In this document: one piece after another, positions 56,546-57,525 of the stretch
How positions within the stretch are numbered: position 1 is the first letter of the stretch
Layout of the letters: every line of letters begins with the position of its first letter
IMG/VR virus record: IMGVR_UViG_3300020420_000671
Length of the DNA: 64,000 nt
Strand: one strand, 5' to 3'
DNA from: a virus
Lineage: Duplodnaviria; Caudoviricetes
Made by a program: the position numbers and the translations under genes
Notes under the pieces: model-generated
The model's database searches: none
What the model was told of the DNA's origin: nothing
Seen by the model: only the letters and a program-made list of their open reading frames with translations

Positions 56546-57292
56546 ATGAAGGTTATAGACGTTTTAACAGAGTCAAAAAAGACAAATGAAGGTCCAATAC
56601 GCTTTTTAAAGCGTACACTAGGTAAAGATTCAGCTATGGGCAAGGATGCACAGCTGGATGTGGAATTGGACAGAGAAGTAAACAATCTTTACAAGGACTT
56701 TTATGCTGTATCTAAGCAAGATCCAAAACTCAAAGGCATGACAGCAAAAGGTTTAGGACAATTTATGGTATCAAAAGGTTTCGCTAACAAGCCTTCAGAA
56801 GTAATGCGTTTTATTAATCAAGATCCAAGCATGAGCAGAATATTAGCCAAGGGTGCTAGAAAATTTGCGAAAGGCGCAAAATCCGCGGCTGGCGCCGCTG
56901 GCAAAGCCGCTAAGATGGTCAGCAAGGGCATGGGCAAAGCCGCTGACGCCGCAAAGAAAGCATTTTCACCTAAGAAGTCGGATCTTACTCCAGATGGACA
57001 AATGGAACTTCCATTGTCAAATTCAATATACAGTGAAGCAGTACTGGAATCAATACTGAACGAAGTTGATATACCTTTGACAAAATCACAAGTCAAACAG
57101 GTAATGAAAGGCTTTGTAAGAAAAGGTTTTCAATCACAGCTAGGAAAACGCATGAAGAAAAGTGCTTACGCAACTGATCCTGGTGACGGTGATATGATGC
57201 CAGATGATGATATTCAGAACGCAGTAAACACTTTGAAAAATGCTGGCTTTAAGATAGATACAAAAACCAAAAAAATTAACACTCCAGCCTAG
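56546..57292 (+). CDS. Late hypothetical protein with Ala/Lys-rich segment, possible internal head protein
   Basis: Late promoter, strong SD, KGAKSAAGAAGKAAK segment. Confidence 0.6.
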   Translation: MKVIDVLTESKKTNEGPIRFLKRTLGKDSAMGKDAQLDVELDREVNNLYKDFYAVSKQDPKLKGMTAKGLGQFMVSKGFANKPSEVMRFINQDPSMSRILAKGARKFAKGAKSAAGAAGKAAKMVSKGMGKAADAAKKAFSPKKSDLTPDGQMELPLSNSIYSEAVLESILNEVDIPLTKSQVKQVMKGFVRKGFQSQLGKRMKKSAYATDPGDGDMMPDDDIQNAVNTLKNAGFKIDTKTKKINTPA

Positions 57293-57519
57293 AAAAAAGG
57301 CTGTCCAGATTTTTTAGCAGTTTCTAAGTTTTCTTTCACAAGATCATTCAACAGTTCTATGTCTTCTTTACATAAATCGTAACTGTCATTTACAGTCAAG
57401 GATCCTCTCATCCACCAGCACAATCTGTACAGGGTTGCCTTAATCTGTTTGACCTCGCCTTCGAGGACCTTAACCTCGTTTTGGATTTTATCGAGTGACC
57501 ATGTTAAGATCCGGAGCCG
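57289..57519 (-). CDS. -1 frame extension (76 aa, gp51-like/gpT-like) of the upstream gp26-like gene
   Basis: Open frame RLRILTWSLD...CWWMRGS...KENLETAKKSGQPFF*; no start with a usable SD; begins at the slippery site; its TAG overlaps the convergent gene's TAG. Confidence 0.65.
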   Translation of the reverse strand, partial: RLRILTWSLDKIQNEVKVLEGEVKQIKATLYRLCWWMRGSLTVNDSYDLCKEDIELLNDLVKENLETAKKSGQPFF

Positions 57520-57525
57520 AAAAAA
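57465..57525 (-). promoter_or_regulatory. Programmed -1 ribosomal frameshift signal
   Basis: T TTT TTC heptamer (57525-57519) in the correct phase, 6-nt spacer, 10-bp stem GGATCTTAAC (57512-03)/GTTAAGGTCC (57474-65) with one G-U. Confidence 0.7.

What the first reader, a model, noticed from the sequence alone, without database searches (positions are those of the whole stretch)
57289..57525. Programmed -1 frameshift fusing the gp26-like and gp51-like frames (lambda G/GT logic in a T4-type phage)
Seen: the 306-aa gene ends AAT TTT TTC GGC TCC GGA TCT TAA. T TTT TTC is an in-phase X XXY YYZ slippery heptamer. Six nt later a 10-bp stem starts (GGATCTTAAC/GTTAAGGTCC), whose single non-canonical pair is G-U only on the coding strand, with an inner CTCG/CGAG helix. 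The -1 frame is closed by TGA just upstream, has no well-placed start, and runs 76 codons to ...KKSGQPFF*, ending in a TAG overlapping the convergent gene's TAG. Predicted products: 306 aa and a 378-aa fusion. Known: lambda gpG/gpGT and P2 gpE/E' tail chaperones use such frameshifts beside the tape measure gene, whereas T4 26 and 51 are separate genes. Here the tape-measure-like gene is adjacent but divergent. Inference: gp26/gp51 are the T4-lineage G/T chaperones and this clade keeps the recoding.
Basis: partly seen in the sequence, partly recalled or inferred. Interest (0 to 1): 0.75.

Follow-up and report, generated by a model that had tools for sequence, protein, structure and literature searches.

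The report
Frameshift makes two baseplate-hub proteins
One tail-baseplate assembly gene of this giant T4-related phage very probably makes a short and a long protein, because some ribosomes slip back one base at a strictly conserved TTTTTTC run followed by an RNA hairpin; related phages (and T4) use two separate genes instead, and I found no published report of the slip.

Summary
The 306-aa gene (57504-58424) belongs to PF12322, the T4 gp26/gp51 family. It ends with an in-phase T TTT TTC (57525-57519). After a 6-nt spacer comes a 10-bp stem (57512-57503 with 57474-57465). A 76-codon continuation in the -1 frame has no usable start codon.

- **Heptamer:** invariant in 59 of 59 non-redundant related jumbo-phage loci, although the codon before it changes amino acid.
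- **Hairpin:** 90% of loci have a 9-bp or longer helix starting 3-6 nt downstream, against 5% of control positions. It shows compensatory changes, and its 3' arm has moved between clades.
- **Extension:** a conserved 78-residue helical module with no indels.
- **Natural control:** other lineages carry the same module fused in frame to a second PF12322 paralogue, colinear with the predicted junction and without any heptamer. Frameshift lineages have only one PF12322 gene.

Calling the extension "gp51-like" is only weakly supported. The lambda G/GT analogy holds for the expression logic, not for family membership. No product was observed. This scan has already found the same frameshift in at least 24 other genomes. 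I found no paper describing it.

The parts
57504..58424 (-). Zero-frame gene, 306 aa: baseplate-hub assembly protein of the PF12322 (T4 gp26/gp51) family. It is the Cys-less 'A-type'. Its product is the short form.
   Evidence: PF12322 at 34.6 bits against a cut-off of 24.5, and phrog_150 'baseplate hub' at E 8.6e-13. It is closest to the first of the two tandem paralogues in the two-gene lineages, E 1e-43 to 1e-48.
57519..57525 (-). Slippery heptamer T TTT TTC, in phase (AAT TTT TTC), four codons before the zero-frame stop.
   Evidence: Read directly. Invariant in 59 of 59 non-redundant relatives. The preceding codon varies (AAT, GAT, ACT, CAT, AGT) but always ends in T. Control FF sites use varied codons.
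57513..57518 (-). 6-nt spacer (GGCTCC) between the heptamer and the stem.
   Evidence: In relatives the helix starts 3-6 nt after the heptamer.
57465..57512 (-). Stimulatory stem-loop. The 10-bp outer stem pairs 57512-57503 with 57474-57465. The inner helix CTCG/CGAG pairs 57495-57492 with 57478-57475. The zero-frame stop TAA (57506-57504) lies in the 5' arm.
   Evidence: Minimum-free-energy fold. In the window's clade 99% of cells are paired, 4 of 10 pairs show compensatory changes and 0 of 500 shuffles reach the observed score. A helix of 9 bp or more occurs in 90% of loci against 5% of control positions.
57292..57525 (-). The -1 frame reading: 78 codons starting FF-RLRIL and ending PFF. This is the C-terminal extension of the predicted 378-aa long form. 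The stop TAG is at 57291-57289.
   Evidence: The extension is 78 aa long without indels in nearly all relatives. F1, F2, R3, W37, M39, R40, G41 and N66 are invariant. The AlphaFold2 model is helical, pLDDT 83.7. The same module is fused in frame to PF12322 in other lineages.
58500..60779 (+). Divergent 759-aa ORF lying between the hub gene and the portal gene. It is a tape-measure candidate only, listed as context.
   Evidence: No family match and no BLAST similarity to T4 gp29. The syntenic gene is annotated as a virion structural protein in 121Q and as a mass-spectrometry-supported structural protein in PA5oct.

Best explanation
Programmed -1 ribosomal frameshifting at the 3' end of a PF12322 (T4 gp26/gp51-family) baseplate-hub assembly gene.

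Most ribosomes terminate four codons after the heptamer and give the 306-aa short form. A fraction pause at the hairpin that starts 6 nt downstream. Their two tRNA-Phe slip from UUU-UUC back to UUU-UUU. They then read CGG CUC CGG AUC... in the -1 frame, giving a 378-aa long form: residues 1-302 plus a 76-residue helical module with the junction ...SNFF-RLRIL....

The sequence signals, their conservation and the natural in-frame fusions are shown here. The slip itself, its efficiency and the products are inferred.

Inferred function: the short and long forms together do the job that related phages split between two tandem paralogues, a short A-type and a B-type carrying the same C-terminal module. 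T4 probably splits it between gp26 and gp51. That job is assembly of the central hub around the tail-length protein. The frameshift would fix the ratio of the two forms.
For: 1. **The signals are present in the window.** In-phase heptamer, 6-nt spacer, 10-bp stem, -1 frame closed 3 codons upstream and open for 76 codons downstream.
2. **The heptamer is under nucleotide-level selection.**
   - T TTT TTC is present in 59 of 59 non-redundant loci spanning 27-100% protein identity.
   - The preceding codon encodes N, D, T, H or S but always ends in T.
   - Phe codons elsewhere are 80% TTT.
   - The conserved terminal FF of the extension uses four codon pairs, with a varied preceding base.
   - T4 gp26 encodes its equivalent FF as TTC TTT.
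3. **The stem is conserved.**
   - The mean uninterrupted helix is 11.8 bp against 6.0 bp at control positions.
   - In the major clade 91% of cells are paired, 5 pairs change on both sides, 0 of 500 shuffles reach the observed score, and pairing falls to 26-57% when the partner is slid.
   - In the window's clade 99% are paired with 4 compensatory pairs.
   - The 3' arm sits in different registers in different clades while the 5' arm keeps its spacing.
4. **The -1 ORF is protein-coding from the heptamer onward.** It is 78 aa with no indels, and F1, F2, R3, R5 and L7 are conserved.
   - 22 of 59 loci have no ATG, GTG or TTG in the first 7 codons.
   - PA5oct has none at all.
   - In the window the first start is at codon 35.
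5. **Natural in-frame fusions exist.** About 20 cluster representatives of 319-351 aa carry the module at the C-terminus of a PF12322 domain.
   - Their junction xxF-R(N/S)(K/R)IL is colinear with the predicted NFF-RLRIL.
   - Their DNA there has no heptamer.
   - The AlphaFold2 model of one fusion is confident as a single unit, pLDDT 90.6 and pTM 0.85.
6. **Gene counts fit a one-gene replacement.**
   - Only one PF12322 locus was found in Phosso, PA5oct, 121Q, Atu_ph07 and a 270-kb IMG/VR contig.
   - Two tandem PF12322 genes occur wherever the fused form occurs and enough flank is held.
   - In those lineages the A-type tail is NFM, NFF or NFL and the heptamer is not kept.
7. **Nothing blocks read-through.** No minus-strand terminator-like site lies between the zero-frame stop and the end of the extension, and no Rfam family matches.
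Against:
- U UUU UUC is not among the most efficient bacterial slippery heptamers (general knowledge), so the long form may be rare.
- Five relatives, among them Phosso, 121Q and Atu_ph07, have an ATG overlapping the zero-frame stop. In those phages coupled re-initiation could also yield a free 70-76-aa protein.
- 31 loci have TTG at codon 7, which gene callers use as a start.
- One two-gene lineage (L087) keeps T TTT TTC at the A-type tail although its -1 frame is closed. The motif can therefore exist without recoding.
- The functional inference rests on T4 genetics and family names, not on any test here.
Confidence: 0.85

Rival explanations
1. Transcriptional slippage. RNA polymerase adds one extra U in the U6 run, giving a minority mRNA in which the two frames are fused. 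The protein would be the same NFF-R... fusion.
For: The run of six T is invariant. A one-base insertion would give exactly the same product as a -1 ribosomal slip (inference from the sequence).
Against: - Six T is short for efficient slippage by bacterial RNA polymerase, which typically needs runs of about 8-9 (general knowledge).
- The final C and the phase of the heptamer are invariant.
- A hairpin kept at a spacing of 3-6 nt, with compensatory changes, is the hallmark of ribosomal frameshifting. Polymerase slippage has no need for it.
Confidence: 0.07
2. There is no recoding. The downstream ORF is a separate small gene, translated by its own or coupled initiation at a non-canonical or internal start, and gives a free 40-78-aa protein.
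For: - GenBank annotates a separate small CDS in Phosso and 121Q, with ATG overlapping the upstream stop.
- Gene callers predict 58-75-aa proteins in many metagenomes.
Against: - In the window the first canonical starts are at codons 35 and 39, which would delete the conserved first helix.
- The ATG next to the stop (57502-57500) is in the other frame and opens a 4-codon ORF.
- PA5oct has no start at all.
- Amino-acid conservation begins exactly at the heptamer (F1, F2, R3, R5, L7).
- This rival does not explain the invariant heptamer and the spaced hairpin.
- Natural in-frame fusions show that the module works attached to a PF12322 domain.
Confidence: 0.05
3. The downstream frame is a decaying remnant of a lost second paralogue and is not expressed. 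The heptamer simply encodes a conserved Phe-Phe.
For: The module does look like what is left of a B-type paralogue whose PF12322 body is absent. FF is conserved as amino acids even in T4 gp26.
Against: - The remnant would have to stay open for 78 codons, without indels and with invariant residues, across lineages down to 27% identity.
- Codon choice at the site is fixed against the codon bias, unlike other FF sites.
- The hairpin shows compensatory substitutions.
Confidence: 0.02

Closest known systems
Lambda gpG/gpGT and the conserved -1 frameshift of tail assembly chaperone genes (also P2 E/E+E', Mu gp41)
   Same: - A -1 frameshift near the 3' end of a tail-morphogenesis gene.
- It yields a major short form and a minor form with an added C-terminal domain, sharing one N-terminus, presumably at a fixed ratio.
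- It lies next to the presumed tail-length gene.
   Different: - The protein family and fold are different: PF12322, about 300 aa, mixed alpha/beta. No tail-assembly-chaperone family was hit.
- The gene is divergent from the tape-measure candidate and is not placed between the tube and tape-measure genes.
- The heptamer is T TTT TTC with a hairpin.
- Binding to a tape measure or tube protein is untested.
Phage T4 gp26 and gp51 (baseplate hub assembly proteins, Pfam PF12322; NCBI calls gp26 a 'baseplate hub assembly chaperone')
   Same: - The zero-frame gene is a PF12322 member, and both T4 proteins are too.
- T4 has a short protein (gp26, 208 aa, ending ...EFFELL) and a longer one (gp51, 249 aa) with an extra C-terminal helical region.
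- The fused B-type profile aligns with gp51 over its whole length.
   Different: - T4 uses two separate, divergently transcribed genes and no frameshift. Its FF is TTC TTT, and gene 25 follows gene 26.
- The window's protein lacks the CxxC pairs of gp26, gp51 and the B-type.
- A-type profile comparisons with gp26 (E 0.028) and gp51 (E 0.095) are weak.
- Homology between the extension and the gp51 C-terminus is not established.
Two-gene jumbo-phage lineages: tandem PF12322 paralogues, with the second fused in frame to the same C-terminal module (for example L086, L087, L094, L095)
   Same: - Same synteny: portal, large structural ORF, then a divergent hub gene or genes.
- Same A-type protein and same 78-aa module, with a junction colinear with the predicted transframe junction.
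   Different: - The module is attached to a second, Cys-bearing paralogue by ordinary translation.
- There is no conserved heptamer at either position.
E. coli dnaX (tau/gamma) -1 frameshift
   Same: A bacterial-type -1 slip at an in-phase heptamer, stimulated by a downstream stem-loop at about 6 nt, that makes two forms of one protein.
   Different: dnaX uses A AAA AAG plus an upstream Shine-Dalgarno-like element, and the shift truncates the protein. Here the shift extends the protein, and I saw no upstream Shine-Dalgarno-like element.

Membership tests
Programmed -1 ribosomal frameshift cassette (heptamer + spacer + downstream structure) | In-phase X XXY YYZ slippery heptamer | tested here: met
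   T TTT TTC at 57525-57519, in phase. Invariant in 59 of 59 relatives.
Programmed -1 ribosomal frameshift cassette (heptamer + spacer + downstream structure) | Stable RNA structure starting about 5-9 nt downstream, supported by covariation | tested here: met
   10-bp stem after a 6-nt spacer. A helix of 9 bp or more occurs in 90% of loci against 5% of controls. Compensatory pairs are present and 0 of 500 shuffles reach the observed score.
Programmed -1 ribosomal frameshift cassette (heptamer + spacer + downstream structure) | -1 ORF without its own start, conserved as protein from the shift site | tested here: met
   First start at codon 35 in the window, and none in PA5oct. F1, F2 and R3 are invariant.
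Programmed -1 ribosomal frameshift cassette (heptamer + spacer + downstream structure) | Transframe product detected, dependent on the heptamer | not testable with these tools
   This needs mass spectrometry, a reporter assay or ribosome profiling.
Tail assembly chaperone G/GT type (lambda gpG/gpGT) | Sequence or fold membership in a tail-assembly-chaperone family | tested here: not met
   Only PF12322 and phrog_150 'baseplate hub' are hit. There are no chaperone families in Pfam, PHROGs or NCBIfam, and no solved-structure fold match.
Tail assembly chaperone G/GT type (lambda gpG/gpGT) | Position between the tail tube gene and the tape measure gene, on the same strand | tested here: not met
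   The gene is divergent from the 759-aa candidate and convergent with an unrelated 248-aa ORF.
Tail assembly chaperone G/GT type (lambda gpG/gpGT) | -1 frameshift near the 3' end giving a C-terminally extended minor form | tested here: met
   The signals and their conservation are as above. The product itself was not observed.
Tail assembly chaperone G/GT type (lambda gpG/gpGT) | Binds the tape measure protein, recruits the tube protein, and is absent from the virion | not testable with these tools
PF12322 T4_baseplate (T4 gp26/gp51) | Match to the family model above Pfam's gathering score | tested here: met
   34.6 bits against 24.5, residues 72-281. T4 gp26 scores 215.6 bits and gp51 177.5 bits.
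PF12322 T4_baseplate (T4 gp26/gp51) | Two CxxC pairs, as in T4 gp26, gp51 and the B-type paralogues | tested here: not met
   The window protein has no CxxC. The B-type has invariant C89, C92, C236 and C239. This is a feature of a subgroup and does not define the Pfam family.
T4 gp51 C-terminal domain (precomputed label PF28602 on gp51 homologues) | Significant similarity of the 78-aa extension to the gp51 C-terminal region | tested here: inconclusive
   - B-type against the gp51 family: 66% probability, E 5.5e-5, spanning the module.
- Extension alone: E 0.016, 2.8% probability.
- PF28602 is not in the local Pfam copy.
- Precomputed hits list only PF12322 for B-type proteins.

The most novel reading that the evidence does not exclude
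PF12322 proteins (T4 gp26/gp51 and their jumbo-phage relatives) are the functional counterpart, in T4-superfamily contractile tails, of the G/GT tail assembly chaperones.

- The short form coats or holds the tail-length protein in the nascent hub.
- The long form's helical C-terminal module recruits the next component.
- The ratio matters enough that evolution reached it twice: by a paralogue pair, and by a frameshift in a single gene.

If so, the frameshift lineages would offer a simple genetic handle (short-only and long-only mutants) on the unexplained 'catalytic' role of gp51 in hub assembly.
Probability: 0.3. Interest if true: 0.75.

Novelty: new variant of a known kind. Interest (0 to 1): 0.6.

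Why it matters
- **Annotation.** Neither of the two long-form-lacking GenBank records read here that show the small ORF (Phosso, 121Q), nor PA5oct or Atu_ph07, annotates the slip. PA5oct does not annotate the downstream frame at all. A conserved virion-assembly protein form is therefore missing from the proteomes of Rak2-like, PA5oct-like, Atu_ph07-like and many uncultured aquatic jumbo phages.
- **Recoding.** The classic 'two forms from one tail gene' frameshift is extended to an unrelated protein family. The case comes with an unusually clean natural control: the same module is attached by a frameshift in one-gene lineages and by ordinary fusion in two-gene lineages.
- **T4 biology.** How gp26 and gp51 act in hub assembly is still unclear. 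A short/long pair with a fixed ratio gives a testable hypothesis.
- **RNA evolution.** The hairpin's 3' arm has moved about 20 nt between clades while the 5' arm and spacer stayed put. This is a neat example of turnover in a stimulatory RNA element inside coding sequence.

Tried and rejected
- **DNA search.** A nucleotide search of the region against GenBank phages found nothing. Relatives are visible only at the protein level.
- **Extension alone.**
  - No Pfam, PHROG or NCBIfam hit.
  - A word-indexed protein search gave only 3 hits, none with a Pfam label.
  - A fold search of the 78-aa model against solved structures gave no match.
- **Fused B-type model.** No solved-structure match. Matches in AlphaFold DB and in the viral structure library were only uncharacterised or 'baseplate hub (assembly)' proteins.
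- **Extension against T4 gp51.** Against the single sequence the only alignment was to the wrong region at 7% probability. Against the gp51 family the result was not significant.
- **759-aa ORF against T4 gp29.** No similarity, so I did not adopt the tape-measure label.
- **Consensus RNA fold.** I solved this by analysing each register separately.
- **Window's own genome.** No whole genome is held. A second PF12322 gene was therefore sought only within the 64-kb window, where none was found, and in complete genomes of relatives.
- **Literature.** Six full-text searches found no report of this frameshift. One query failed on a term that was too short.
- **Complex prediction.** Not run, because no binding claim is made.
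Full report
**1. The observation**

The feature lies on the minus strand. ORF 57504-58424 encodes 306 aa and ends ...GAT CAG AGC AAT TTT TTC GGC TCC GGA TCT TAA.

- The heptamer T TTT TTC occupies 57525-57519 and is in phase, X XXY YYZ.
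- In the -1 frame a TGA lies three codons upstream of the heptamer. The frame then stays open to TAG at 57291-57289.
- That TAG overlaps by two bases the TAG (57290-57292) of a convergent 248-aa ORF.
- After a 6-nt spacer, GGATCTTAAC (57512-57503) pairs with GTTAAGGTCC (57474-57465). The stem has one U-G pair, so it is better on the coding strand. An inner CTCG/CGAG helix is part of the minimum-free-energy fold.
- The predicted products are 306 aa and 302 + 76 = 378 aa.

**2. What the gene is**

- The 306-aa protein matches PF12322 (T4_baseplate) above the gathering score and matches phrog_150 'baseplate hub'.
- The window also encodes gp46/gp47-like nucleases, a SegE-like endonuclease and a T4-type portal. 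It is therefore a T4-superfamily phage.
- Protein-level relatives in GenBank are jumbo myoviruses at 27-32% identity: Phosso, PA5oct, the 121Q/PBECO4 group and Atu_ph07.
- The 78-aa -1 product hits no family library.

**3. Comparative test of the frameshift signals**

Four GenBank relatives and 80 IMG/VR loci were read, giving 59 non-redundant loci.

*Heptamer and extension*
- Every locus has the in-phase T TTT TTC, 1-4 codons before the zero-frame stop.
- Every locus has a -1 ORF that, counted from the two Phe codons, is 78 codons long, almost without exception and without indels.
- The seven heptamer positions are the only fully invariant run in the region.
- The preceding codon changes its amino acid (AAT, GAT, ACT, CAT, AGT) but always ends in T.
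- Phe codons elsewhere in these genes are 80% TTT.
- The equally conserved terminal Phe-Phe of the extension uses four codon pairs and a variable preceding base.
- T4 gp26 encodes its corresponding Phe-Phe as TTC TTT.
- The heptamer is therefore conserved as nucleotides, not merely as Phe-Phe.

*Hairpin*
- 90% of loci have an uninterrupted helix of at least 9 bp starting 3-6 nt after the heptamer, against 5% at random positions in the same genes. The means are 11.8 bp and 6.0 bp.
- Folding z-scores average -3.8.
- In the major clade (35 sequences) 91% of cells pair and five pairs change on both sides. No shuffle in 500 reaches the covariation score, and pairing falls to 26-57% when the 3' partner is slid.
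- In the window's own clade (10 sequences) 99% of cells pair, with four compensatory pairs.
- The 3' arm sits about 20 nt further downstream in the major clade than in the window's clade, while the 5' arm and spacer are fixed. This argues that the helix itself is what is selected.

**4. The -1 frame is translated from the heptamer**

- Conservation of the extension starts at F1, F2 and R3 (invariant) and R5 and L7 (at least 90%).
- Upstream of the heptamer the -1 frame is closed within a median of three codons.
- 22 of 59 loci have no ATG, GTG or TTG within the first seven codons. PA5oct has none anywhere. In the window the first are at codons 35 and 39, inside the conserved domain.
- The TTG that gene callers use at codon 7 in 31 loci is the conserved Leu7 codon and lies inside the 5' arm of the stem.
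- Only five loci have an ATG overlapping the zero-frame stop.

**5. Natural in-frame fusions**

A profile of 48 extensions was searched against 1.84 billion protein representatives and gave 458 hits.

- About 20 representatives are 319-351 aa long with the module at their C-terminus.
- These are PF12322 proteins with four invariant Cys.
- Their junction ...LDxSxxF-RxK(I/L)(L/I)... is colinear with the predicted ...FDQSNFF-RLRIL....
- Their DNA has no heptamer at the junction.
- AlphaFold2 models one of them confidently as a single unit, pLDDT 90.6 and pTM 0.85. The isolated module is a helical hairpin, pLDDT 83.7.

**6. One gene or two**

- Wherever enough flank is held, the fused 'B-type' gene is preceded by a second PF12322 gene, the 'A-type' of 276-300 aa.
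- The window's protein is A-type: E 1e-43 to 1e-48 against A, and 1e-22 to 1e-26 against B.
- In these two-gene lineages the A-type tail reads NFM, NFF or NFL and the heptamer is not maintained. One retains it with a closed -1 frame.
- Conversely, Phosso, PA5oct, 121Q, Atu_ph07 and a 270-kb IMG/VR contig each contain only one PF12322 locus. The window contains only one.
- The frameshift lineages thus appear to make from one gene what others make from two.

**7. Relation to T4**

- T4 gp26 (208 aa) and gp51 (249 aa) are both PF12322. They are transcribed divergently, and gene 25 follows gene 26.
- B-type against the gp26 family: 90% probability, E 1.5e-6, over the core.
- B-type against the gp51 family: 66% probability, E 5.5e-5, end to end. 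The module aligns to the gp51 C-terminal region with deletions.
- The extension alone against gp51 is not significant.
- A-type against either T4 family is weak.
- The statement 'short form = gp26, long form = gp51' is therefore an architectural parallel with modest support, not established orthology.
- Whether the frameshift is ancestral or derived cannot be decided here.

**8. Mechanism and rivals**

The best explanation is canonical -1 ribosomal frameshifting by tandem slippage of two tRNA-Phe, stimulated by the hairpin.

- Transcriptional slippage on the T6 run would give the same protein. It does not explain the spaced, covarying hairpin or the invariant C, and T6 is short for bacterial RNA polymerase (general knowledge).
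- Independent initiation is excluded for the window and for PA5oct. It may coexist with the slip in the few phages that have an overlapping ATG.
- A dead remnant is excluded by the conservation.
- No terminator-like site on the coding strand interrupts the cassette, and no Rfam family matches it.

**9. Comparison with lambda G/GT**

The expression logic is the same. The protein family, the fold and the gene position are not. The neighbouring 759-aa ORF is only a candidate tape measure. I therefore say it works like G/GT, but I do not file it as a tail assembly chaperone.

**10. Novelty and limits**

- Six full-text searches found no report of this frameshift. None of the four GenBank records read annotates a slip.
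- Other agents of this scan have reported the same frameshift in at least 24 other genomes. I read those notes after my own analysis, and they agree with it.
- No expression or proteomic evidence was available.

Noticed in passing
window 57292-57300 (minus strand): The extension itself ends CCT TTT TTC TAG. This is a second in-phase T TTT TTC, placed directly before its stop codon. In relatives the terminal Phe-Phe uses four different codon pairs, so this one looks incidental.
   Followed up: partly
window 56546-57292 (+): The convergent 248-aa ORF has an Ala/Lys/Gly-rich middle (...AKGAKSAAGAAGKAAKMVSKGMGKAADAAKK...). It has no family match apart from a marginal PHROG hit. Its stop overlaps the stop of the frameshift extension.
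   Followed up: no
window 58500-60779 (+): This 759-aa Gly/Ala-rich ORF lies between the hub gene and the T4-type portal gene. It matches no family. Its syntenic counterparts are annotated as virion structural proteins in 121Q and PA5oct. It is a tape-measure candidate, unverified.
   Followed up: partly
window 58424-58480 (minus strand): Upstream of the hub gene there is an AGGAG Shine-Dalgarno motif 8 nt before the ATG, and a CATAAATA motif about 40 nt upstream. The latter resembles the T4 late promoter TATAAATA at 7 of 8 positions.
   Followed up: no
window 55412-55834 (+) and 55835-56545: A minimal SegE-type GIY-YIG endonuclease gene (PF19835, E 4.6e-36) is followed by about 700 nt with only short ORFs. 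Another first-stage note proposes a structured RNA there.
   Followed up: no
contig of GCA_015689235.1 (no DNA held): In a two-gene lineage the neighbouring T4-type portal gene (1015 aa) carries an intein (PF14890) inserted between two halves of the portal domain.
   Followed up: no
L087 1260-1295: The A-type gene of a two-gene lineage keeps an in-phase T TTT TTC, but the -1 frame closes after one codon (FFH*). This could be a relic or a chance occurrence, and it bears on whether the frameshift is ancestral.
   Followed up: partly
L002 (PA5oct, NC_071039) 3331-3558: The 75-codon -1 ORF after the baseplate-hub gene of PA5oct is not annotated at all and has no ATG, GTG or TTG. This is an annotation gap in a well-studied phage.
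   Followed up: yes
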